From: Carcharhinus amblyrhynchos
Lineage: Eukaryota
NCBI GenBank assembly: GCA_965287045.1
Contig: OZ336881.1
Location: 21,390,001 to 21,454,000 of the forward strand
DNA length: 64,000 nt
Direction of reading: 5' to 3'
The notes under the pieces are model-generated. The model was not told the origin of the DNA. It did no database searches and saw nothing but the letters and a program-made list of their open reading frames with translations. Below, one piece after another: positions 10,561-61,450 of this stretch. Both the position numbers and the translations under genes were made by a program. Every line of letters starts with the position of its first letter. The first letter of the stretch is position 1.

Positions 10561-10956
<396 letters not shown>

Positions 10957-14991: not shown

Positions 14992-17726
14992 AGTTCTTCA
15001 TTCACCAAGGGGTTCAGAAGGCTGGGGGGGGAAGAGGTCCTGCCTCCAGAAAAGCATGCAGGAACTGCTCCAACTGCAGTAGATGGGGGTTGATGTCAAG
15101 AAGGAGGTGAAGAGCCAGCAAGCCTTGCTCTTTGCCTCGGAGGCCGCCAAGGTCATCTTCCAGTCCAGGGTCCGCTCTATGGAGCAGGATGAAAAGTGCT
15201 CGCGTTTCTTCTTCCAGAAGGTACACAGAGAAACCTCTGTGATCAGCTGCCTGAAGGAAGAAGACGGCTCAGTAAGGTCATCGCAGACAGACATTCTGAG
15301 GGTCTGCAAATCCTTCTATGCCGGACTGTACGACCTGAAGCCAACAGACAGCACGGCCTCCCAGTCTTTCCTGTCGTCTATCACACAGGTCTTAGACGAC
15401 AGCGAGCAGGACAGCCTGGGCAGACCGGTATCTCTGGACGAGCTGACCAAGGCCGTCGAGTCCTTTCAGAAGGGTAAAACTCCCGGAAGCGACGGCTTAC
15501 CAGCTGAGTTTTACTCGGTGTTGTGGGACTTGATGGGCCCGGACCTCCTGGAAGTATACGAGAGTATGCGTCTGGAAGGCAGGATGTCAGAATCCATGAA
15601 GAAAGGCATCATTACCCTCATCTACAAGCAGAAGGGGGAGAGGGAAGAAATTAGAAATTGGCGACCCATTTCACTATTGAACATGGATTATAAAATTCTG
15701 GCCAAAGTCATCGCCAACCGGGTCAAGTCTGCTCTGGGGTCAGTGATCCATCCTGATCAAACCTGTGCTGTACCCGGCAGGAAGATCTCTGACAGCCTCG
15801 CGCTACTCAGGGATACGGTCACCTACGTGCAGGACAGGCAGGTGGATTCGTGCCTCATCAGCCTCGACCAGGGGAAGGCGTTTGACAGAATATCGCACAG
15901 CTACATGATGGATGTGCTCTCCAAAATGGGCTTTGGGGAGGGAATCTGCAATTGGATCCGGCTGCTCTACACAGATATCAGTAGCACAGTTTCAATCAAT
16001 GGGTGGGAATCAGATAGCTTTCAAATCAGGTCTGGAGTCAGACAGGGCTGCCCTCTCTCCTCCGTCCTTTTTGTGTGTCACATTGAACCCTTTGCCAAGG
16101 CCCTCAGAAGCGACCCAGGCATCAAAGGGGTGACAATCCCAGGCAGCGGAGGCACACAGGTCAAAGCCTCCCTGTACATGGATGACGTGGCTGTCTTCTG
16201 CTCGGACCCCTCGTCTGTTCGCAGGCTCCTCCAGGTCTGCGAGCAGTTCGAGCTGGCCTCGGGAGCCAAAGTCAACCAGGGTGAGAGTGAGGCCATGTTC
16301 TTTGAGAACTGGGCTTACAAATCCTTTGTCCCCTTCACTGTCAGGGCAGATTACCTGATGGTGCTAGGGATATGGTTTGGAGCGGCAGGGGCATGCGCCA
16401 AAAACTGGGACGAGCGCATCGCAAAAACCAGGCAGAAACTGGGCTTGTGGGAGCAACGGTCCCTTTCCATGACAGGAAAAAACCTGGTGATCCGGTTCGA
16501 GGTGCTGTCCGTGTTGTTGTACGTGGCACAGGTGTGGCCTATCCCCAATTCCTGCGCTGCAGCAGTGACGCAGGCCATCTTCAAGTTTATCTGGAGATCA
16601 AGATGGATTGCGTCCGGAGGGAGGCGATGAACAAATCTCCAGAGAACGGAGGGAAAAACGTTCCCGACGCCGCCCTCATCCTGATGGCCACCTCGGTACA
16701 CTAACAGCAAGTGCCACTACTTTTTGAGGTTCTACCTGTCCCGAGTGTTGCGAAGGATGGGTCTGGCCACACTGCCGCGGAATGCTGTGAGTAGTTGGAC
16801 CGTACCGCAGCACCTGTCCTTCGTGGAGAAATTTTCCCGCAAACACACCTTTGACCACACGGCGATTAAGCAGTGGTCAGCGCGTAACGTCCTTGGGGCT
16901 GTGAGAGAAAAGGAGACGGCGGATCCTGTCGGATGGTTCCCTGAGCAGACTGTCAGTGTCATCTGGCAGAACGCCTCATCACCAGAACTGACAAACAAGC
17001 ACCAAGACCTGGTTTGGCTGGTGGTGAGAAGGGCACTCCCCGTCAAATCCTTTATGCACGCTCGAGGTCTCAACATCACCGCACACTGCCCTCGAAGCGG
17101 CTGCGGGGCTGACGAGACGGTCGCACACCTCCTTGTGGAATGTGCCTTTGCAAAGAAGGTCTGGAGTGAGATGCAGTGGTATTTGTCGAGGTTCGTCCCG
17201 AGCAGCTCGGTGACGCAGGACTCTGTGCTCCACGGGCTATTTCCGGGGACGCACACCGAGACAAATATCAACTGCTGCTGGAAGGTCATCAACTCGGTGA
17301 AGGATGCACTTTGGTCCACCCGAAACTTGCTGATCTTCCAGTTGAAAGAACTGTCCTTGACCGAGTGTTGCAGACTGGCACATTCCAAGGTCCAGGACTA
17401 CGTGCTGAGGGACGCGCTGAAGCTTGGGGCAGCAGAGGCACAATGGGGAAAGGCCACACTGTAAGGCCTTTTAACAGAGGCAGACCGAGGGCCCGGGAAC
17501 TGCAGAATACCCTCGACCTGCGTAACTGTGTGCCAATCTGAGAACTAACGGCACACAGTAATTTATTGAGGCATGTATATAGTTTAAGTATTGAAATGTA
17601 ATCATTGTAATTTGTACAGATGTGAAAGAATGTCTTGATTCTGCATTGTTTGCAGTTCAAACCCTATACATTTGCAATAGTTTATTTCAGATTTTTATGA
17701 ATAAAGTATATTTTTGGAGGGAAAAA
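14992..17726 (+). mobile_element. 5'-truncated Tx1-clade LINE (ORF2 RT plus C-terminal Cys/His domain)
   Basis: ORF 15083-16630 with KTPGSDGLPAEFY, NWRPISLLN, GVRQGCPLS, YMDD. The frameshifted continuation 16724-17464 has CPRSGC..ETVAHLLVEC. AATAAA at 17700, A tail, 13-bp TSD aaacatattccaa (14979-14991/17727-17739). Confidence 0.92.
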
Positions 17727-35599: not shown

Positions 35600-36120
35600 C
35601 GTTTCCATGGTGATGGTGATCGGTGCTCTCTGCACTCGGCCGCTTGGGCCTGGGGTCTGGTTGCCGGCGCTCGCTTTGCCCGGGTTTGGGTCTCTATGGT
35701 GACGGGCTGGGTGCCCCAGGCCGCAGGATGTCGGCCGTGTCCCGGGCGGTTCTCGGAGTGTCCGTGGTGCTGACAGTGGGCACGGTGGCCGGGGTCCACC
35801 TCAGGCAGCAGCTGGAGCGGGAGGTGGGTTCTTTCAGGCCGGGCTCCGAGCCGCCCGGACCGCAGGGTGAGGCCCGGGATTCCGGGCCCGCATCAAGATG
35901 GAGCCTCGCGTTGGAGTTTGGAGCCCGCTGCCGCTCACAGTGAAGCTCCGGCTCCGCCGCCCGGCAGGTTGTGGTTACAGAGGGTGAATGAGCGGTTACT
36001 GCCGGCCCCAGTGGCTGTGACCCCGCCGGGGGGGGGGGGGTCTGAGGGCACCCTGCAAACACGTGATGAGGGGGAGGGGAATTTAATTGAGCGCGAGGCG
36101 CAGAACGCTCTCCCCCCGGA
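35600..36120 (+). promoter_or_regulatory. CpG island / promoter of PET117-KAT14
   Basis: Dense CpG, GC-rich block around the PET117 start codon in otherwise CpG-poor DNA. Two RFX X-box-like motifs at 35601-35614 and 35690-35703. Confidence 0.75.
35728..35823 (+). CDS. PET117: PET117 exon 1 (cytochrome c oxidase assembly factor)
   Basis: MSAVSRAVLGVSVVLTVGTVAGVHLRQQLERE matches the PET117 transmembrane N-terminus (TVAGVH). Donor GAG|gtgggt, phase 0. Confidence 0.93.
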
Positions 36121-38345
36121 TCTCCCCCTCTCCCGGGAAAATCACCTCCCCACCCCCCGGGACACACACTCCTCCCCTCGATCCAATCTCCCCCTAACCT
36201 CGGGATCCCCTCGGGTTCCACCCAGCCCCCCTGGGATCCACCCTCCTCCACCACCCACCCCCGATACAGCGCCCCCCACCCCCGACCCATACCCTTTCTC
36301 TCTTCCCCCGGATCCATCCCCTCCTCCCCCCGCCACAGATCCATCCTCCCCTCCACGCCCCCCCCCCGTCCATCCCCTCCTCCCCCCCGCCCCCCCGATC
36401 CATCCCCTCCTCCCCCCCCCCCCCCCCCGATCCATCCCCTTCTCTCCCCCCTCCCCCCCATCCCTCCTCCCTTCCCCCCATCCCTCCTCCCTTCCCCCCT
36501 CCCCCTGCTTCCCTGCTCCCCCCATTCCCCTTTTCCCCCCCATTCCCCCCCCCATTCAGCACATCCGTCTCCCCGAGATCCAGCCCCCAGATTCACCCCC
36601 CCTCTGCCCACCCACAATCCACACCTCTCTCCTCCAGGATCCACCACCCTCCCCCCGGGCTCCACCACCCCATTTCCCCAGGATCCACCCCTCTCTCGGG
36701 ACCCAACTCCCGGATCTACAGCTCTCCCCCGCCCACCTGGAATCCACACCTCTTCCCTCCAGGATGCACTACCCCTGGGATCCGCCAGCCCCCTGGATTC
36801 TCCCTCCCCACCGGGATCCAACCCTCTCCCACCTGGGATTCATACCCCTCCCAACCGGGAACCACCCCAGCCACACAGGATCCCTCCCCCCTGGATCCGC
36901 GCCTCTTTCCCCCCGGATCCAACTCCCAGGGACCCTCCCCAGGGATCCTCCCCTTCCCTCCAAGGATCTCCGCTTCCCCCCCAGGAATCCTGACCATCAC
37001 TCCAGGGACCCTGCCTTCCCAACACCCAAGGGATCTCTCCCCCAACATCCTCTCCTCCCTCTCAGGGATCCTCCCCTATCCCTCCACGAATCCTTGCCTA
37101 TCCCTCCATGAATCCTTGCCTCCCCGCCAGCAATCCTCCCTTCCTAGTGATCCTCTCCCCCCACCAGGGATCCTCCCCCCACCTCGAGGGATCCAGCCTC
37201 CCTGGGTGCACCCTCCGGGGATCCACTCCTCCACCCAGGGATCCCCCATGGAATTCCCACACCCCTTCTGGAATCTCCCGTCCTGGGATCCCCTCCCTGT
37301 GGGTTCTACCCGTCCTTGGGGTGCGCCACTTTACCCTTGGATCCATCCCACCCCTGGTATCCATCCCCCCCGCCACCGGAATCGCCCGCCCCCACCGGAA
37401 TCCCCCCCCCCCCCCCCCCCCCCGAATCTATCCACCCCCCTCCTCCCCCCGGAATCTATCCACCCCCCTCCTCCCCCCGGAATCTATCCACCCCCCTCCT
37501 CCCCCCGGAATCTATTCACCCCCCTCCTCCCCCCGGAATCTATCCACCCCCCTCCTCCCCCCGGAATCTATCCACCCCCCTCCTCCCCCCGGAATCTATC
37601 CACCCCCCTCCTCCCCCCGGAATCTATCCACCCCCCTCCTCCCCCCGGAATCTATCCACCCCCCTCCTCCCCCCGGAATCTATCCTCCCCCCGGAATCTA
37701 TCCTCCCCCCGGAATCTATCCACCCCCCTCCTCCCCCCGGAATCTGTCCACCCCCCTCCTCCCCCCGGAATCTATCCACCCCCCTCCTCCCCCCGGAATC
37801 TATCCACCCCCCTCCTCCCCCCGGAATCTATCCACCCCCCTCCTCCCCCCGGAATCTATCCACCCCCCTCCTCCCCCCGGAATCTATCCACCACTTCCCC
37901 CTCCCTGGAGTCCATCCCCTAGCCCCAAGATCCACGCCTTCTCCCTGGTATCCACCGCCCTGGATCCATCCCTCCCCCTGGGCTCCACACCCATCCCCAC
38001 AGGATCCACCCTCCCGGGATCCAGCCCTGGGATCACCCCCTCCAGGATCCAACACTCATCCCCCGGGATCTAGCCCCCCCAGGATCATCCCCCTGGGATC
38101 CCTACTTGCTCAGGATCCTCTCCCTCCGGGAGCTCCCCCCTCCTTTCTGAATGTCACCCCTCCCCCCCCTAGATTTCCTTCCCTTCCTCCAGCCCCCCCC
38201 TCCCTGATCTCTCCCCCCAGATCTCTCTCCCTCCTGCCCTTGGATCTCTCCCACCCCCACCCCCCAGATCTCTCTCCTCCCACCCCAGTCTCTCCCCAGA
38301 TCCCCTTGGGATCTGTTCCCACTGCCCCCACCTTCCAGGTTCCCC
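36100..38345. repeat. C-rich low-complexity tract with recurring GGATC/GGAATC in PET117 intron 1
   Basis: C runs punctuated by ggatcc/ggatct/ggaatc every ~15-40 bp. Extreme C over G skew. Confidence 0.9.
37423..37892. repeat. 28-bp minisatellite (GGAATCTATCCACCCCCCTCCTCCCCCC)n
   Basis: Units start at 37451, 37479, 37507 and so on. About 17 copies, two of them shortened near 37675-37710. Confidence 0.95.
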
Positions 38346-40000
38346 CAAGATGGACAAGTTTACATTTCACATGTCATACTCCACATACCAAGTTTTGCCC
38401 AATCACTTAACCTATCCATATCCCTTTGCAGACCCCGGTGTCCTCTTCACAACTTACCATCTAGCTATCTTATTGTTGCCGGCACATTTAGCAACTATAG
38501 ATTATGTCCCTTCATCCAAATTATTGATGTAGATTGTAAATAGTTGAGGCCCTTGCATTGAACCCCTGTTGCACTCCCCTTATTACATCCTGCTAACCCA
38601 AAAATACAACCGACCTAACCAATCCTCCCTCCATACAAAGATATTATTCTCTGCATTATGAGCTCTTACTTTGTATGGTAGCCTTTGATGTGGTGTATTG
38701 TCACATGCTTACTGGACATCTAAATATATCACATCCATAGGTTTATTCAAGTTGTCAGTTTATTCCTCAAGTAACATTAATAGGTTGGTCAGACATGATA
38801 TCCCTTTCACAAAGCCTGATTGCACTGATAATTTCTAGGTGTCAGCATGACCTCATTAACAATAGATTACAGTATTTTTCCTATGACAAATGTTAAGCTA
38901 ACTGGTCTGTAGCTGCCTGCTTTCTGTATCCATCCTTTTTTGGATAGAGGAGTTCCATTCACTTTTTTGCAGTCTGGTGGGATGTTTCCAGAATCTAGGG
39001 AATCAAAACCAATGCATCTACTGTCTCAGCAGCTACTTTCTTTAAGCTGCTAGAATGAAGTCCATCTTGACCTGGGGACTTGTCAGCTTTTAGTTCTAAT
39101 AATTTTCTCAGTCCCCTTTCTCCGAATTGCAATTTTTTTAGTTTCCCCATCTTTGTCGCTTCTTGATCCATAATTATTTCTGGCTTGTTATTTGTATCCG
39201 TTACACTGAAGGCAGATGTAAAATCTCTCTTCAGTTCCTTAGCCATTTTGTATCTTCCATGACTGACTCCCCCGACTCTTCCTCTAGAGGACCAATGCTT
39301 ACTTTGCTTCTATCCTTTTTAAATAACTAGAAACTCTGTTTTAAAATTTCTAGCTAGACTTCTGTTGTGCTCTATTTTCTCACTTCTTGATATTTCCTCT
39401 TTGCAGCTTTTTTATTCTGTCCAATCTTTTGATCTTTCACTAATTTTTGCAGCATTGTATGCTTTCTCTTCCAAAGTGATACTATCTTTAGTTTCCTTAG
39501 ATAGTCACAGTTAGTCTCCCATCCCCTATAGCTTTTCTTACTGGAAAGTATCTTTGCTGAGCATTGTGAACTCAGTAGAGAGTCACTGCATCTCTACCGA
39601 CCTATCCTTAACCTAATTTTGCAGTTCACTTTAGCCACTGTCTTCCTCCCTTTATAATTGCCCTTTTTAAAACAAAAACACGGAGAGCCATTCTTCTTTC
39701 CGTAAGACTGTAAGATATAGGAGCAGAATTGGGCCATTAGGCCCATTAAGTCTGCTCTGCCTTTCAATCATGGCTTATATGTTTCTCAAACCCATTTTCC
39801 TGTTTTTTCCCCGTAACCTTTGATCCCCTTACCAACCAAGAGCCTATCTATTGCTATCTTAAATATACTCAATGACCTGTGCTCCACAGCCTTAAGAGCA
39901 ATTAATTCCACAGATTCAGCACCCTCTGGCTGAAGAAATTCTTCCTCATCTCCTAAAGGACTGTCCCTTTACTCTGAGGCCATGCCCTTGGGTCCTGATA
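38345..40000 (-). mobile_element. Old CR1 ORF2 fragment plus a CR1 3' end (39710-40000)
   Basis: LLELKADKSPGQDGLHSSSLKKVAAETVDAL in the minus-strand ORF 38995-39246. Confidence 0.8.
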
Positions 40001-41044
40001 TCATTTTTCAGTTCTCTTTCTAGGAGAATTTCACAGTAACTTCACTGCAGTTTTAATGTAAGCCTTACTTGTGACTAATAAATAAACTTTAAACTTTTTT
40101 CTTTTGTTAGTATTGAATTCATAATCCTTTCTCATGTACAGATTTTTCCATGGCATTGTGGTGTTCCATCTCTGCCTTGTGCCCTGTTCTGTTGTGTTCA
40201 ACCCCTCTGGCTCTGTGGGATAACATTGTTATCTCAGAGTGGTTGGTTCTTGTCCATTGCTGGAATACAAGAAATGGGGGAGAGAGAGAAGACTTGTATC
40301 TTGACTTTCAGCTCATGGGGAAGCTTCTGAGGTCTAGAAGCACACATAGTTCCAAAACTGAAGAGCCTCTGGAATCTTAACTATTGCAACTTGACTAAAA
40401 AGTACAGTCCACTCCATAACTGATGCGTTCTGTCGCTAACCAAGTTTGGAATTGAGGTTCCTTTTCTCTGAACGGATCTGGTTTATGAAGGCAATACCAA
40501 ATTCTGTTTTCTGCTTCCATTATTGGGTGAATGAAGCTTTGCGTGCGAATGGTTAAGTACAAAAACAGTGCCCTGATTGTTGGTTTCTGACTGGTAAGAT
40601 GCAGCAGGGGAGTTGGTTCTTTTTTAATATTAACAAATCAGATATGACTCAATGAATTACCTACTTGTACATTAGTTATTGCATTTCTGGAAAGTGTATC
40701 GTAATATTTGCACTACAAAATCTGCTGCTAATACCAGGCAAGCTTTCACCTTGATCAGTAACCTCTAACATAGACGCTTAAAGAATATTTTATACTTGGA
40801 TCACATCCCAGATTTAGGGGGGGTTGTGATGTCAATTGTGATGATATTCTTTTGGATCAGCTTTTGATAACCTTCGGTACATAGGTTGGCATGAAGTATG
40901 ATTTCTGGTGTCCAAGCCTCTCACTCTGTAGCATATCAATTAGTTAAACTGACTCGGTTAATATTAAAAGAGTTCAAGTGAGAAGTTGTATTTTTGGGCT
41001 TCCCAGTTTGAATCTTCAGTCACTTGAAATATTGGGATGTGCTT

Positions 41045-41320
41045 CATTCCAAGAGACCTGGGTTTGATTCCTAGCTTAGGTCATTGTCTGTGTGAAGTTT
41101 GCATCTTCTCCCCGAATCTGCGTGGGTTTCCTCCAGGTGCTCCGATTTCCTCCCACAGTCCGAAAGGCATGCTGGTTAGGTGTATTGGCCAGGCTAAATT
41201 CTCCTTCAGTGTACTCGAACAGGTGCTGGAAAATGGCAACTAGGGGATTTTTACAGTAACTACATTGCGGTATTAATGTAAGTCTACTAGTGACACTAAT
41301 AAATAAACTTTAAACTTAAA
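41045..41320 (+). mobile_element. HE1-like SINE, tail B (tail-only copy at about 40020-40097)
   Basis: Same tail as 10175, 35291 and 62197. Confidence 0.82.
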
Positions 41321-41411
41321 GCTGCTTTGAAATATTCAGTAATTTAGTATAATGTTTTTGGATTGATCACCAGATAAATGTTTGAATCTACATTTTTTTT
41401 TCTTTCCTTAG

Positions 41412-41576
41412 AGGTTGCGAGAAGGAGTTTTCAGAGATCTTGAACGGCAGGCACGCAAAAAGGAGAATCTTCGAATCCTAGAGGAACAAATTAGTCTGAC
41501 AAAGAAACTGGAAGCAGATCGACTACAGAAAAACACCTTGGCCCCAGAGAGTTCTCAACAATCTGCAAAACAATAG
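41412..41576 (+). CDS. PET117: PET117 exon 2 (to stop)
   Basis: Acceptor tttttctttccttag|, reads RLREGVFRDLERQARKKENLRILEEQISLTKKLEADR...SAKQ*. 86 aa in total. Confidence 0.94.
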   Translation, partial: RLREGVFRDLERQARKKENLRILEEQISLTKKLEADRLQKNTLAPESSQQSAKQ

Positions 41577-41675
41577 CCTCATCTCTTTTGAACTTTGGAT
41601 GTTTAATAGATGACGGATTTTTTTTTCCTTCAGAATTGTAGAAAAAGACTTGATAGAATTATTTAATTTAAGATG

Positions 41676-41681
41676 AATAAA
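41676..41681 (+). terminator. Candidate poly(A) signal for a PET117-only mRNA
   Basis: AATAAA 100 nt after the PET117 stop and 78 nt before the KAT14 ATG. Confidence 0.45.
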
Positions 41682-41758
41682 GCTGCTTTTTGGATAACTG
41701 CTATGCCACTCTAGCTGTTGACCCGTTCTAGTGTAACCATTGCCAGAGGTTTGGGAGT

Positions 41759-42026
41759 ATGGAAGAAAACGAGGAGACAAAAAGCTTAACTGCTCGCCAA
41801 ATGGAGGATGAGTGTGCAAGAATGACTGCTTCTGAAGGCTTGGAAGAAGGAGAGGTTGAAGGAGAAACTCTACTGATCGTTGAGTCAGAAGACCAGGCCT
41901 CAGTGGACCTGTCCCACGATCAGAGTGGGGATTCCTTGAACAGTGAGCTGGGTGATGAAGGGGAAGGGTCCTGGACAGAAGAGATGTCCTTTTACTGTGA
42001 CAAATGTCAGAAGTGGATACCTTCAA
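41759..42026 (+). CDS. KAT14: KAT14 (CSRP2BP/ATAC2) first coding exon
   Basis: SEGLEEGEVEGETLLIVESEDQASVDLSHDQSGDSLNS...FYCDKCQKWIP matches the KAT14 N-terminus. Donor A|gtacgt, phase 1. Confidence 0.94.
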
Positions 42027-42859
42027 GTACGTATGTTACTCCTGAAATATCTAAGTATAATATCTTATGTTATTCTGATATATGAGGAGCAGAATCTCAG
42101 TTGAGCTTCCCCAATCTTTCTCAGAGTTACAGTGGCAAATTAGTTGATAATATGTGGAAATTACTGGTTCAGTTCAGTGGAAAATGGGATGCATTTGCTT
42201 TTCTTGAGCTAACACGTGCACTCAAAATTCAACTGTGAAAAATGGGATTGTAAAAATTGAGTCATATGATCCATAAATGGTATCAAGATACAGAAGGTAA
42301 GGCAAAATGAAGTGCTGTTTGCCAATGGGGTGTTTTAGCCTGAAATAACTACTGTGTACTATTAGTCTGCAGCCCTGATCGGCAGTGGTGTGACTCCGAC
42401 ACCACTGGTTGGTTCAATAACTGACTCTAAAATGAAAGATTTCTACAAGTTTTGGAAATCTGTTATAAAATTCCAGGTCTCCCAAATAAGTGAGAGACAT
42501 TGTGGTCATTTTGTCTTCTTGAAAAGAGAGATGAGTATGTATCACAACAATTCTTGAGGCTTAAAATGAGTGCAAAGCAGTTCAATTTCAGTGAGACAAC
42601 CTGCATCCAATCTGCACACTTCTGAATTCGTGGGACCCGCTTATTAGGCATGCTGAATGAAAATCTAAAACAGTTGGCTTCTTGAATCACTTCATTAGGA
42701 GCTTGCTGCCTCTTAAAGAACCCCTGCATAAAGTTACTTACCATCGACCAGTCTCTCCCCATGTAGAATTCTTCAGTGGGCCCTGTGATATTGAACTAGA
42801 TGTGTTTTAATTTTTCAGCTTTTTGAAAAACAAAACATTCCTCAGTAGGAGCAGGAGTA

Positions 42860-44195
42860 TCCACCTGTCTGTGTGGAGTTTGCTTCCTGTGTCACCATGG
42901 GTTTCCTCTGGGTGTTTACTCCCACAGTCCAAAGATGCATGGGTTAGTTGATTGGCCATGCTAAATTGACCCTAGTGTCAGGAGATTTGATTTCTTATAG
43001 TCACATGTATTAGCATACAGTGAAAAGTATTGTTTCTTGCACACTATACAGACAAAGCATATCGTTCACAGAGAAAGAAACGAGAGAGTGCAGAACGTAG
43101 TGTTACAGTCATAGCTAGGGTATAGAGAAAGATCAACTTAGTGCGAGTTAGGTCCGTTCAAAAGTCTGACGGCAGCAGGGAACAAATTGTTCTTGAGTCG
43201 TTTGGTACGTGACCTCAGACTTTTGTAACTTTTTCTCAAAGGAAGAAGGTGGAAGAGAGAATGTCTGTGATGCATGGGGTCCTTAATCATACTGGCTGTT
43301 TTGCCGAGGCAGCGGGAAGTGTGGACGGAGCCAGTGGATGGGAGGCTGATTTGCGTGATTGATTGGGCTACATTCACAACCTTTTGTAGCTTCTTGCGGT
43401 TTTGGGCAGAGCAGGAGCGATACCAAGCTGTGATACAACCAGAAAGAATGCTTTCTATGGTGTAGCTGTAAAAGTTGGTGAGAGTCGTAGCTGACATACC
43501 AAATTTCCTCAGTCTTCTGAGAAAGTAGTGGTGTTGGTGGGCTTTTTTAACTGTAGTGTTAGCATGGGGGAACCAGGACAGGTTGTTGGCGATCCGGACA
43601 CCTAAAAACTTGAAGATCTTGACCCTTTCTACTTCATCCCCGTTGATGTAAACAGGGCATGTTCTCCTTTACACTTCCTGAAGTCGATGACAATCTCCTT
43701 CGCTTTGTTGGCACTGAGGGAGAGATTATTGTCGCTGTACCAATTTACCAGATTTTCTATCTCATTCCTGTACTTTGTCCCATCATTGTTTGAGATCCGA
43801 CTCACTATGGTGCTGTCGTCAACAAATTTGAAAATCGATTTGGGCAGGAATTTGGCCATACAGTCATGGTGTATAAGGGGTATAGAAGGGGCTGAGAACA
43901 CAGTCTTGTGGGGTTCTGGTGTTGAGGATGATCATGGAGGAGGAGTTGTTGCCTATCCTTACTGATTGTGGTCTGAGAGTTAGGAAACTCAAGATCTAGT
44001 CGCAGAGGAAAGAGCTGAGGCCCAGGCCACAGAGTTTGGAGATGAGTTTCGTGGGAATAATTAAAAATGAGCAATAATTAATAATCGGCAGGGTAAATTT
44101 GTGATGTTACAGGAATAGGGCCTGGGTGGCATTGGGGTCAGTGCAGACCCGATGGGCCAAATGGCCTCCTTCTGCACTGTAGGGATTCTATGACT
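42860..44195. mobile_element. HE1 SINE (+; about 42860-42985 and 44085-44195) split by a Rex1/Babar-like LINE (-; about 42986-44060)
   Basis: Minus ORFs HDCMAKF..SIFKFVDDSTIV, NFYSYTIESILSGCITAWY, RTKRLKNNLFPAAVRLLN. The SINE halves are collinear on either side. Confidence 0.82.
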
Positions 44196-54881: not shown

Positions 54882-55003
54882 CTCAGTTGAGAGGAGAGCA
54901 CCCCAGTTACTTGCGGGGCGATAACTTCTTCCGATTTAGTTGTTCAGACTGTGTAGAAGATGGGAAGGAACACTTTGAGAGACTGAAGCTTACATGGCAA
55001 CAA
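54882..55003 (+). CDS. KAT14: KAT14 second coding exon
   Basis: Long pyrimidine tract then ag|, reads (T)QLRGEHPSYLRGDNFFRFSCSDCVEDGKEHFERLKLTWQQ, donor |gtatgt. Confidence 0.95.
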
Positions 55004-58329: not shown

Positions 58330-58451
58330 GTTGTGATGTTGGCCATGTACAATTTGTCATTGGAAGGAACTGGTCGCCAAGGCTACTTCCGTTGGAAGGA
58401 AGATATTTGTGCTTTTATTGACAAACATTGGGCCTTTTTATTGGGAAACAG
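58330..58451 (+). CDS. KAT14: KAT14 third coding exon (gene continues beyond window)
   Basis: ctttctcag|VVMLAMYNLSLEGTGRQGYFRWKEDICAFIDKHWAFLLGN(R)|gtaaaa. No further exon recognised before 64000. Confidence 0.95.
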
Positions 58452-58898
58452 GTAAAATACAAGCAGTACACAGTGCCTGGAAAATAATAATTGATTATAA
58501 TGTTGATTCTTATCTAGTGCATTCATTGGTTTATGAAGCAGTATAATAACTGTTAGTCAACCAATTCCATCCAAAAGATGCAACATTTAAACATTGTAGA
58601 AGGGGAGAAATAGTACAAATCTATACACTGTCACTTGTACATTTTTAGTTTTCTGTTTAGGCATTCAACAAATGTTGATTCTTGCTGCATTATTGGTTAC
58701 CCATTAAACATAAGTCATCTTGATACTTGTACAAGTTTGTGTTTCATATGATGCTACTCGGCTAGGCATGAACATGAAAATTGCAGTAAAAAGAGATGAT
58801 GAAATAGTAGGTTTTATTAGAAGTGATTCTGGCAAATCGTAGTGAGAGTCATATCTCTTGGATGAAGATTTTTGTGCTTACTGTTTTTATTCCAGTTC

Positions 58899-59339: not shown

Positions 59340-61450
59340 AATCCACTTTGGTAGGAATGACAGCAAAATGGACTATAATTTAAATGGCAAAAAATTGCAG
59401 CATGCTGCTGTGCAAAGGGACCTGGGTGTCCTTGTGCAGGAATCTCAAGGAGTTGGTTTGCAGGTGCAGCAGGAAATTAAGAAGGCAAATGGAATTTTGT
59501 CCTTCATTGCTAGAGAGATGGAGTTTGATAGAGCAGACGCAGCACGGTTTCATTAAAGGGAAGTCGTGTCTGACAAATTTACTGGAGTTCTATGAGGATG
59601 CGTCTAGGGCGGTGGATAGAGGAGAGCCGGTGGATGTGGTCTTTCTAGATTTTCAGAAAGCGTTTGACAAAGTGCCTCACAAGAGGTTATTGCAGAAGGT
59701 TGAGGGACATGGAGTTGGGGGTAGGGTGTTAGCGTGGATAGAGGATTGGTTGTCAAATAGGAGGCAGAGAGTGGGGGTAAACGGGTGCTATTCGGATTGG
59801 CGGATGGTGACCAGTGGAGTGCCCCAGGGGTCGGTGCTGGGACCTCAGCTTTTTACCATTTATATAGATGATCTGGAGGAGGGAACCGAGTGTAGAGTGT
59901 CGAAATTTGCTGATGACACCAAGATTGGGGGAACGGCAAATTGTGCGGAGGGTGTGGAGAGTCTGCAGAAGGATCTAGATAGGCTGGGCGAATGGGCCAG
60001 GAAATGGCAAATGGAATTTAATGTTGGCAAGTGTGAGGTGGTCCACTTTGGTAGGAAAAATGGTAGGAAGGACTATTACTTACGAGGCGAAAAACTGCAG
60101 CAGGCGACGGTGCAGAGGGACCTCGGGGTCCTTGTGCATGAGTCGCAAAAACCCAGCTTGCAGGTGCAGCAGGTGGTCAGGAAGGCGAATGGGATGCTGG
60201 CCTTCATAGCGAAGGGGATTGAATATAAAAGTAGGGAGGTCTTGCTGCAGCTGTATAGGGCATTGGTGAGGCCGCAACTGGAGTACTGTGTACATTTTTG
60301 GGCGCCGCACCTGCGCAAAGATATTTTGGTCTTGGAGGGAGTGCAGAGGAGGTTTACTAGGCTGATACCGGAGTTGAGGGGGTTGAGCTATGAGGGGAGG
60401 CTGAATAAACTGGGCTTGTACTCGTTAGAGTTTAGAAGAATGAGGGGAGATCTCATTGAGACGTATAAGATGATGAATGGGATGGATAGGATAGAGGTGG
60501 AAAGACTCTTCCCGCTCAAAAAAGACAATAGGACTAGGGGGCACAGCCTCAAGATAAAAGGGGGGCGGTTTAGAACGGAGTTGAGGAGGAACTTCTTCAC
60601 TCAAAGGGTGGTGAATCTCTGGAATTCTCTGCCCGTTGAAGTGGTGGAGGCTGCCTCGCTAAATATTTTTAAGACGCGGGTTGATGGATTTTTGATAGGA
60701 GAGGGGATTAAGGATTATGGGGAGAGGGCGGGAAAGTGGAACTGAGCAGCGACAGATCAGCCATGATCTTATTGAATGGCGGGGCAGGCTCGAAGGGCTG
60801 GATGGCCTACTCCTGCTCCTATTTCTTATGTTCTTATGTTCTTAAAATCAGCAAGATTATGTTGCAGCTGTATAAAGTGCTGGTGAGGCCACACCTGGAG
60901 TACAGTGTATAGTTGTGGTCTCCTTACTTGAGAAAGAATATACTGGCACTGGAGGGGGTGCAGAGGAGCTTCACTAGGGTTAATTCCGGAGTTGAGAGGG
61001 TTGGCTTATGAGGAGAGACTGAGTAGACTGGGACTAGACTCATTGGAATTCAGAAGAATGAGGGGAGATCTTATAGAAACTTATAAGATTATGAAGGGAA
61101 TGGATAAGAAAGAAGCAGGGAAGTTCTTTCCACTGGCAGGTAAAACTAGAACTAGCCTCAAAATAAGGAGAAGCAAATTTAGGACTGAGTTGAGGAGGAA
61201 CGTTTTCACACAAAGGTTGTGAATCTGTGGATTTCCCTGCCCAGTGAAGCAGTTGAGGCTATCTCATTGAATGTTTTTAAGGCAAGGATAGATACATTTT
61301 TGAACAGTAAAGGAATTAAGGTTTATGGTGAGCGGGCGGGTAAGTGGAGCTGAGTCCACAAAAAGATCAGCCGTGATGTTATTGAATGACAGAGCAGGCT
61401 CGAGGGGCCAGATGGCCTACTCCTGCTCCTAGTTCTTATGTTCTTATGTA
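59340..61450 (+). mobile_element. Young CR1 (about 59528-60843, open RT-to-C-terminus frame) nested in an older CR1
   Basis: QHGFIKGKSCLTNL, LDFQKAFDKVPH, SGVPQGSVLGP, KFADDTK with no stops, and a (ttcttatg)n tail. The host CR1 resumes at 60844. Confidence 0.93.

What the first reader, a model, noticed from the sequence alone, without database searches (positions are those of the whole stretch)
41412..42026. PET117 and KAT14 share one exon and promoter: bicistronic unit with an internal poly(A)/splice switch
Seen: the PET117 stop (41576) and KAT14 ATG (41759) are 182 nt apart, with no CpG island or promoter-like sequence between them. The only CpG island is at PET117 exon 1. The spacer holds a strong alternative acceptor (tttttttttccttcag|41634), an AATAAA (41676) and four upstream ATGs (41599, 41610, 41673, 41703), all closed by stops before 41759. 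Exon 1 spliced to 41634 would give a truncated PET117 (..ERE-NCRKRLDRII*). Known: human PET117 and KAT14 also overlap. Inference: an ancient switch between PET117-only, bicistronic and KAT14-biased mRNAs couples a complex IV assembly factor to the ATAC acetyltransferase.
Basis: partly seen in the sequence, partly recalled or inferred. Interest (0 to 1): 0.7.

Follow-up and report, generated by a model that had tools for sequence, protein, structure and literature searches.

The report
Shark PET117-KAT14 two-protein messenger RNA
In this shark, the gene for a small mitochondrial assembly protein (PET117) and the gene for a chromatin enzyme (KAT14) share their first two exons and are most likely read from one messenger RNA, an arrangement already published for humans and seen here with the same layout in a bony fish, while the proposed splice/poly(A) switch between them found no support.

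Summary
All listed features are in the sequence. Spliced transcript contigs from 7 runs (4 organisms, 5 studies) each carry the whole exon 41412-42026 and go on into downstream KAT14 exons. In the 4 runs where the upstream letters were shown, they are PET117 exon 1. Human PET117-KAT14 is already one of 14 bicistronic pairs in PMC13303939 Dataset EV1 (179 of 195 long reads; Ribo-seq on both ORFs). A bony-fish contig has the same exon layout, so the unit likely predates the shark/bony-fish split. The 'ancient switch' is not supported: the fish spacer has no AATAAA and no strong acceptor. In the shark the AATAAA and the four uATGs are within chance; only the 41634 acceptor is mildly unusual (about 4%). 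The assembled path reads through both sites, but contigs cannot exclude rare isoforms. Likely mechanism (inferred): leaky scanning past the PET117 start, then reinitiation after short spacer uORFs. Vertebrate PET117 is nearly free of internal Met (47 of 50, against 15 of 53 other homologues). The scan's index held no earlier PET117/KAT14 finding.

The parts
35615..35823 (+). Exon 1 (shared first exon, in the CpG island).
   Evidence: Loose letters before 41410 equal 35792-35821 in 4 of 4 runs (1 difference in X11), loose lengths 35-207 nt; GC 0.69, CpG o/e 0.75
35696..35773 (+).
   Evidence: Sequence; use untested; the bony-fish contig has no ATG between position 901 and its PET117 start
35728..35823 (+). 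PET117 coding part 1 (32 codons, phase-0 donor)
   Evidence: PF15786 E 1.6e-8; also 96 nt in human and bony fish
35824..41411 (+). Intron 1 (GT-AG, 5588 nt) with C-rich repeats
   Evidence: skipped by contigs
41412..42026 (+). Shared exon 2 (615 nt): end of PET117, spacer, start of KAT14
   Evidence: One unbroken contig in each of 7 runs
41412..41576 (+). PET117 coding part 2 with stop; no internal ATG in any frame in the whole 261-nt CDS
   Evidence: (E 8.2e-9)
41577..41758 (+). 182-nt intercistronic spacer (217 nt in the bony fish, 303 nt in human)
41599..41613 (+). Spacer uORF, 4 codons, weak context
41610..41666 (+). Spacer uORF, 18 codons with T9 but 10 with T10; the T run varies between runs
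41618..41633 (+). Acceptor-like polypyrimidine tract and AG (next base 41634); use not shown
   Evidence: read through by all contigs
41673..41714 (+). Nested spacer uORF (13 codons from 41673, 3 codons from 41703) ending 44 nt before the KAT14 ATG
   Evidence: the bony fish has a similarly placed nested pair (-87/-66, gap 51 nt)
41676..41681 (+). AATAAA hexamer; use not shown
   Evidence: absent in the bony-fish spacer
41759..42026 (+). KAT14 (CSRP2BP/ATAC2) first coding segment, strong Kozak context (A at -3, G at +4), phase-1 donor
   Evidence: phase 1 also in human (259 nt) and bony fish (259 nt)
54882..55003 (+). KAT14 next exon (122 nt)
58330..58451 (+). KAT14 next exon (122 nt by the GT donor; contigs match 6 bases further). 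Seven more coding exons lie past the window end.

Best explanation
PET117 and KAT14 share exon 1 and a 615-nt exon 2 in spliced shark transcript contigs, and both proteins are likely made from this one mRNA, with PET117 predicted to act as a protein-coding upstream ORF in the KAT14 leader, as published for human. Shown: the exon joins 35823>41412 and 42026>54882 and read-through of the whole spacer. Inferred: transcription starts at the exon-1 CpG island. Most ribosomes start at the PET117 AUG (A at -3, T at +4). Some scan past it, cross the AUG-free PET117 CDS, are caught by the 3-18-codon spacer uORFs (all closed at least 44 nt upstream) and reinitiate at the strong KAT14 AUG. These ribosomes would also clear the downstream exon junctions that otherwise make the PET117 stop (450 nt before the next junction) a decay signal. 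The 41634 acceptor and the AATAAA are most likely incidental or minor, shark-specific sites.
For: One contig spans 41410-42026 in 7 of 7 runs laid (4 organisms, 5 studies). It continues into KAT14 exons, and in 4 of 4 runs it is preceded by exon-1 letters; three of those contigs are 4.7 kb. The contigs skip 5.6-kb and 12.9-kb GT-AG introns, so they derive from RNA. The own genome gave one match for the exon and one PET117 locus. Human orthologue NM_001392073.1: 179 of 195 long reads hold both ORFs, and both have Ribo-seq calls (PMC13303939 Dataset EV1). A bony-fish contig has the same exon sizes and phases, no internal ATG in PET117, five closed spacer uATGs and a strong KAT14 context. 9 of 10 longer PET117 hits are PET117+KAT14 fused gene models from 7 bony-fish species and a lizard. 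No Met in residues 2-69 in 47 of 50 vertebrate PET117s against 15 of 53 other homologues. The reinitiation rule (uORF stop upstream of the main start) is from passages of PMC10275272.
Against: A de Bruijn contig across two genes does not prove a single molecule; overlapping separate transcripts could be merged (tool note). There are no shark long reads, cap, 3'-end or ribosome data, and 'RNA' is the tool's guess for these runs. The translation route is untested, and five AUGs plus one leader AUG precede KAT14. The uATG number and closure match chance. The lack of out-of-frame ATG in shark PET117 follows from its amino-acid sequence alone. The Met contrast rests on related sequences; only 6 of the 53 comparison proteins were named as invertebrates, and I left out a 7-member feline 'PET117-like' cluster and one aberrant lizard model, which do carry Met. 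The shark and fish spacers do not align better than chance (p 0.14).
Confidence: 0.72

Rival explanations
1. One reading: regulated use of the 41634 acceptor (42-codon uORF, favouring KAT14) and of the AATAAA at 41676 (PET117-only mRNA) sets the ratio of the two proteins and is ancient.
For: The acceptor is as pyrimidine-rich as the real ones, has a branch-like TTAAT 31 nt upstream, and such sites are rare (3.6% of shuffles; 1 decoy in 12.9 kb of intron 2). The AATAAA has a CA 26 nt downstream and a weak GU-rich stretch. No difference was listed at the AG or the hexamer in the 4 runs. 16 of 195 human long reads do not hold both ORFs.
Against: The bony-fish spacer has neither signal. The dominant contig reads through both sites in 7 of 7 runs. 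The T run varies in length and carries a T>A change in X11. AATAAA is expected in 8-14% of such stretches. Shark divergence here is only 0-14 changes in 617 nt, so intact sites say little.
Confidence: 0.1
2. Two mostly separate mRNAs overlap in exon 2. KAT14 has its own start in late intron 1, in exon 2 or in the spacer, and the assembler merged the two into one contig.
For: Contigs cannot show starts or single molecules (tool notes). Six upstream AUGs would make KAT14 translation from the long leader inefficient.
Against: No CpG island in 38400-41758. In human 92% of long reads hold both ORFs. The layout is kept in shark, bony fish and human with a spacer of only 182-303 nt.
Confidence: 0.1
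3. One mRNA, but KAT14 is reached mainly by reinitiation after the full 86-codon PET117 ORF, or by internal entry in the U-rich spacer, not by leaky scanning.
For: The PET117 start has a purine at -3 in shark and fish, so leakage may be low; the spacer is U-rich (69 T of 182).
Against: Reinitiation after long ORFs usually needs dedicated elements (PMC10275272 passage), and none is conserved between the shark and fish spacers. Met depletion inside vertebrate PET117 fits scanning through the CDS.
Confidence: 0.08

Closest known systems
Human PET117-KAT14 bicistronic transcript (NM_001392073.1 / ENST00000688188; PMC13303939 Dataset EV1)
   Same: Orthologous proteins; 96-nt PET117 part in exon 1; rest of PET117, spacer and first KAT14 segment in one exon; phase-1 donor; 10 KAT14 coding exons.
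   Different: Spacer 182 vs 303 nt; PET117 86 vs 81 aa; KAT14 first segment 268 vs 259 nt. The shark has no long-read or Ribo-seq proof, and the human spacer sequence was not examined.
Vertebrate bicistronic mRNAs with a protein-coding uORF: STREMI-SLC35A4, MIURF-MIEF1, PYURF-PIGY, ASDURF-ASNSD1, SNURF-SNRPN (PMC13303939)
   Same: A small conserved protein (mitochondrial for STREMI; for MIURF and PYURF recalled) is encoded upstream of an unrelated larger ORF on one mRNA; both proteins have much older homologues.
   Different: The downstream ORF here is a 10-exon gene, so the retroposed, intronless origin proposed for SLC35A4 does not apply. The PET117 stop lies upstream of nine exon junctions. 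Stress-responsive translation is shown for SLC35A4, not for KAT14.
ATF4/GCN4-type uORF reinitiation control (PMC10275272, passages)
   Same: Short uORFs ending upstream of the main start can allow reinitiation.
   Different: No uORF overlaps the KAT14 start, so the ATF4 inhibitory overlap (recalled) is absent; the first ORF is a functional 86-aa protein.

Membership tests
Orthologue of human PET117-KAT14 unit | Upstream ORF is PET117 and downstream ORF is KAT14/CSRP2BP | tested here: met
   Pfam PF15786; named homologues; P0001 maps in 10 segments along the locus
Orthologue of human PET117-KAT14 unit | Same exon layout and intron phases | tested here: met
   96-nt exon-1 CDS, shared exon 2, phase-1 donor in shark, bony fish and human coordinates
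Bona fide bicistronic transcript (criteria of PMC13303939) | Two complete family-recognised ORFs on one spliced transcript | tested here: met
   Contigs join exon 1, exon 2 and KAT14 exons; PET117 ATG inside the contig inferred from length in X1, X2, X9, X11; contig-level evidence only
Bona fide bicistronic transcript (criteria of PMC13303939) | Long reads show the two-ORF form predominates | not testable with these tools
   Only assembled contigs were available for shark; human 179 of 195
Bona fide bicistronic transcript (criteria of PMC13303939) | Ribosome footprints on both ORFs | not testable with these tools
   Human only
Bona fide bicistronic transcript (criteria of PMC13303939) | Both ORFs under purifying selection | tested here: met
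   Indirect: intact conserved proteins across cartilaginous and bony fishes; no PhyloCSF or dN/dS run
Retroposition-born bicistronic unit ('gene symbiosis' of STREMI-SLC35A4 type) | Intronless downstream ORF | tested here: not met
   KAT14 has 10 coding segments
Internal alternative-polyadenylation switch | Canonical hexamer with downstream GU/U-rich element | tested here: inconclusive
   Hexamer present, downstream element weak, chance 8-14%
Internal alternative-polyadenylation switch | Mapped 3' ends near 41700 | not testable with these tools
   Contigs cannot show ends
Internal alternative-polyadenylation switch | Signal conserved across jawed vertebrates (the 'ancient' claim) | tested here: not met
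   0 of 12 hexamer variants in the bony-fish spacer; one outgroup sequence only
Alternative 3' splice-site switch | Acceptor anatomy (branch point, pyrimidine tract, AG) | tested here: met
Alternative 3' splice-site switch | Junction 35823>41634 in RNA | tested here: inconclusive
   The main contig uses 41412 in 4 of 4 runs; contigs drop rare variants
Alternative 3' splice-site switch | Acceptor conserved outside sharks | tested here: not met
   Best bony-fish spacer YAG has 9 of 14 pyrimidines against 14 of 14
ATF4-type delayed reinitiation | Short uORF closed upstream of the main start | tested here: met
   expected by chance in 38-51% of shuffles
ATF4-type delayed reinitiation | Inhibitory uORF overlapping the main ORF (feature recalled) | tested here: not met
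   All spacer uORFs close at least 44 nt before the KAT14 ATG
ATF4-type delayed reinitiation | Stress-induced translation of the main ORF | not testable with these tools
   Needs reporter or ribosome profiling

The most novel reading that the evidence does not exclude
Since the origin of jawed vertebrates, PET117 has served as a translational gate on KAT14. Its coding sequence was purged of internal AUGs, and a nested uORF about 86 nt before the KAT14 start (shark -86/-56, bony fish -87/-66) sets reinitiation. Stress that lowers initiation would then shift ribosomes from the complex IV factor to the ATAC acetyltransferase, and PET117 nonsense alleles or knockouts would change KAT14 dosage in cis.
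Probability: 0.22. Interest if true: 0.62.

Novelty: already known. Interest (0 to 1): 0.3.

Why it matters
The bicistronic unit is known in human, but only as rows in a 2026 supplement. That paper's cross-species table (Dataset EV6, seven pairs) has no PET117 or KAT14 entry, and my nine paper searches listed no study of the pair. Shark RNA contigs plus a bony-fish contig put the same layout at the base of jawed vertebrates (over 400 million years; date recalled). Practical point (inference): the human disease allele PET117 c.172C>T, a stop at codon 58 (PMC5429353, passages), and PET117 knockouts shorten or remove KAT14's upstream ORF and could alter KAT14 levels. That paper's text never mentions KAT14 or CSRP2BP. 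The layout also explains recurrent PET117-KAT14 'fusion proteins' in automated annotations.

Tried and rejected
1. No RNA holder is on record (22 runs listed, RNA only guessed); 7 of the 22 were laid. 2. No contig with a loose end at 41634, none ending near 41700, and none covering 41335-41388 in 4 runs. Contigs drop rare variants and cannot show ends, so this is not proof of absence. In one search the joint and loose-end tables were swamped by interspersed repeats and cut. 3. Shared 10-mer at 41713-41722 in shark and fish spacers (p 0.04 unadjusted): rejected as a conserved element, because organism D differs at 2 of its 10 bases (41718, 41720) and the whole-spacer alignment is not significant (p 0.14). 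4. Conserved peptide from uORF 41610: rejected, length changes 18 to 10 codons with the T-run variant. 5. Real PET117-KAT14 fusion protein: fused database models have a different linker each time, the spacer has in-frame stops, and only weak acceptors (41732, 41747) would give an open fusion; read as prediction artefacts. 6. Selection against out-of-frame ATG by codon choice: not testable in shark (none possible given the protein), and not significant in fish (P0 0.37). 7. Retrocopy as source of the spliced contigs: one genomic match only. 8. L005 looks bacterial and is a chance hit; dropped. 9. PDB search with the KAT14 first segment found nothing. 10. Papers: searches; passages of PMC3012649, PMC4716680, PMC3334569, PMC5429353 say nothing on a shared transcript. 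PMC3951408 supplements have no hit. The PMC7530721 supplement and four zip files of PMC13303939 could not be read, one more was cut, and figures are not visible; these may bear on the claim that the pair's evolution is not in print. 11. Earlier-findings look-ups gave nothing relevant.

Full report
Observation. The PET117 ATG is at 35728, the donor after 35823, the acceptor before 41412, and the 86-aa ORF ends at 41576. A 182-nt spacer follows, then the KAT14 ATG at 41759 and a donor after 42026. Both PET117 halves match Pfam PF15786. The KAT14 segment is 92-94% identical to shark CSRP2BP, and the nearest named PET117 is from Mustelus asterias at 93%, so the host is a shark. The genome gave one match for the exon and one PET117 locus. 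The spacer and the last 3 kb of intron 1 are CpG-poor, while exon 1 is an island; C-rich repeats in intron 1 also pass the thresholds.

Chance. In 5000 dinucleotide shuffles of the spacer, AATAAA appears in 7.7%, four or more ATGs in 48%, and an acceptor this pyrimidine-rich in 3.6%. Among 111 GC-matched tiles of the window, 16 have AATAAA, 9 such an acceptor and 3 both. All uATGs close before the KAT14 start in 51% of shuffles. Only the acceptor stands out, mildly, and it has a branch-like TTAAT at 41603.

RNA evidence. Of 22 runs listed (RNA only guessed), I laid 7, from 4 organisms and 5 studies. In one search (X1, X3, X9, X12) each run had one contig over 41410-42026 that continued into 58330-58457; the 54882-55003 piece was listed for three runs and fits a 122-nt gap in X1. 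In one search (X1, X2, X11, X14) exactly one contig per run covered the exon. Its loose letters upstream equal the end of exon 1 and those downstream the start of exon 3. By length, four contigs (X1, X2, X9, X11) reach past the PET117 ATG, to about 35615-35652. So the main assembled path uses 41412 and reads through 41634 and 41676. The tool warns that a contig across two genes shows no single transcript, and that contigs drop rare variants and show no ends. Minor isoforms are therefore neither shown nor excluded. The T run before 41634 is 9 in the window, X2 and X14, and 10 in X1 and X11, which changes uORF 41610 from 18 to 10 codons.

Conservation. A metagenome scan returned one usable contig, L004 (1 of 2 loci), which I read as a bony fish from its proteins. 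It has a 96-nt exon-1 CDS, a shared exon with 150 nt of PET117, a 217-nt spacer and 259 nt of KAT14, with the same phases. Its spacer has none of 12 poly(A) hexamers and no acceptor above 9 of 14 pyrimidines. It does have five uATGs, all closed, including a nested pair at -87/-66 (shark -86/-56), and its PET117 CDS has no internal ATG. The two spacers do not align beyond chance (p 0.14). A shared 10-mer (p 0.04) is changed at two bases in organism D. Nine of 10 longer PET117 hits are PET117+KAT14 fused models from bony fishes and a lizard, each with a different linker. I read these as annotation artefacts that still show tight linkage; none was from an invertebrate, which is weak evidence.

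What is known. PMC13303939 (EMBO Rep 2026; I saw the abstract, passages, sections 13 and 16, parts 1 and 25 of Dataset EV1, part 1 of Dataset EV6 and term searches) lists human PET117-KAT14, NM_001392073.1, among 14 bicistronic pairs. 179 of 195 long reads hold both ORFs and both have Ribo-seq calls. Its coordinates give 96 + 150 nt of PET117, a 303-nt spacer and a 259-nt first KAT14 segment. The main text does not name the pair, and the cross-species table of seven pairs has no hit for it. Passages of PMC3334569 and PMC5429353 describe human PET117 as a two-exon, 81-aa mitochondrial complex IV assembly factor without mentioning KAT14 or CSRP2BP. That KAT14 is a subunit of ATAC is recalled.

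Mechanism. Shown: the spliced structure and the AUG map. From about 35615, six AUGs precede KAT14: a 25-codon uORF at 35696 that overlaps the PET117 start, PET117 itself (A at -3, T at +4), then none for 258 nt, then four in the spacer. KAT14's own context is strong in shark and fish. Inferred: ribosomes that miss the PET117 AUG scan through its AUG-free CDS, translate a short spacer uORF and reinitiate 44 or more nt later. PMC10275272 (passages) says that uORFs closed upstream allow reinitiation, while reinitiation after long ORFs usually needs extra elements. In support, 47 of 50 vertebrate PET117 proteins lack Met in residues 2-69, against 15 of 53 other homologues (0.06 vs 1.4 per protein). 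These sequences are related, and only 6 of the 53 were named as invertebrates. I left out a 7-member feline 'PET117-like' cluster, all with Met and possibly an unlinked copy, and one aberrant lizard model with two. The shark CDS cannot contain an out-of-frame ATG given its amino acids, so codon choice adds no evidence. The PET117 stop lies 450 nt (fish 476, human 562) before the next junction. By the usual decay rule (recalled), KAT14 translation would be needed to protect the mRNA; PMC3951408 (abstract) argues the same for polycistronic transcripts in general.

Rivals. Unregulated minor use in sharks is quite possible. (b) Separate overlapping mRNAs merged by assembly, about 0.10. (c) Reinitiation after the full PET117 ORF or internal entry, about 0.08.

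Verdict. The feature is real and is the shark orthologue of an already published human bicistronic transcript. What this check adds is evidence that the layout is shared by shark, bony fish and human, that it did not arise as an intronless retrocopy (10 KAT14 coding segments), and a hint of AUG depletion in vertebrate PET117. The headline switch is unsupported. Interest 0.3.

Noticed in passing
window 35696-35773 (+): A 25-codon uORF (G at +4) overlaps the PET117 start out of frame; ribosomes using it would bypass PET117 and could reinitiate downstream. No counterpart at that place in L004.
   Followed up: partly
window 41732 and 41747 (+): Two weak acceptor-like AGs would join PET117 exon 1 in frame to KAT14 without a stop; not seen in contigs; the nearest fish site (L004 2317) has an in-frame stop.
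   Followed up: partly
L004 2334-2342: A consensus-like splice donor lies 7 nt before the bony-fish KAT14 ATG; if used it would drop the KAT14 start (read by eye).
   Followed up: no
window 42092-42325: Low-depth intronic contigs just past the 42026 donor in X2 (depth 6.1) and X9 (depth 3.1); could be pre-mRNA, DNA or a PET117-only read-through form. Similar low-depth pieces lie deeper in the intron in X1, and the first A(A/T)TAAA in intron 2 is at 44060.
   Followed up: partly
window 41618-41626: The T run is 9 in the window but 10 in X1, which otherwise matches all 617 bases: polymorphism or a homopolymer error in the assembly.
   Followed up: partly
window 36272-38286: Strongly C-skewed repeat region in intron 1, with a 28-nt minisatellite of 17 copies at 37407-37892; the opposite strand is G-rich.
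   Followed up: no
window about 10765-10956 (-): C2H2 zinc-finger exon, probably OVOL2: the motif is recalled, and the human order OVOL2-PET117-CSRP2BP is in Table 1 of PMC4716680.
   Followed up: partly
window 15083-17464 (+) and 59384-60745 (+): Long ORFs that look like LINE-type reverse transcriptases by eye; not scanned against a library.
   Followed up: no
proteins P0151, P0309-P0314: A feline 'PET117-like' cluster has gained core Met residues absent from most vertebrate PET117s; possibly a copy freed from the KAT14 leader, or a decaying copy.
   Followed up: no
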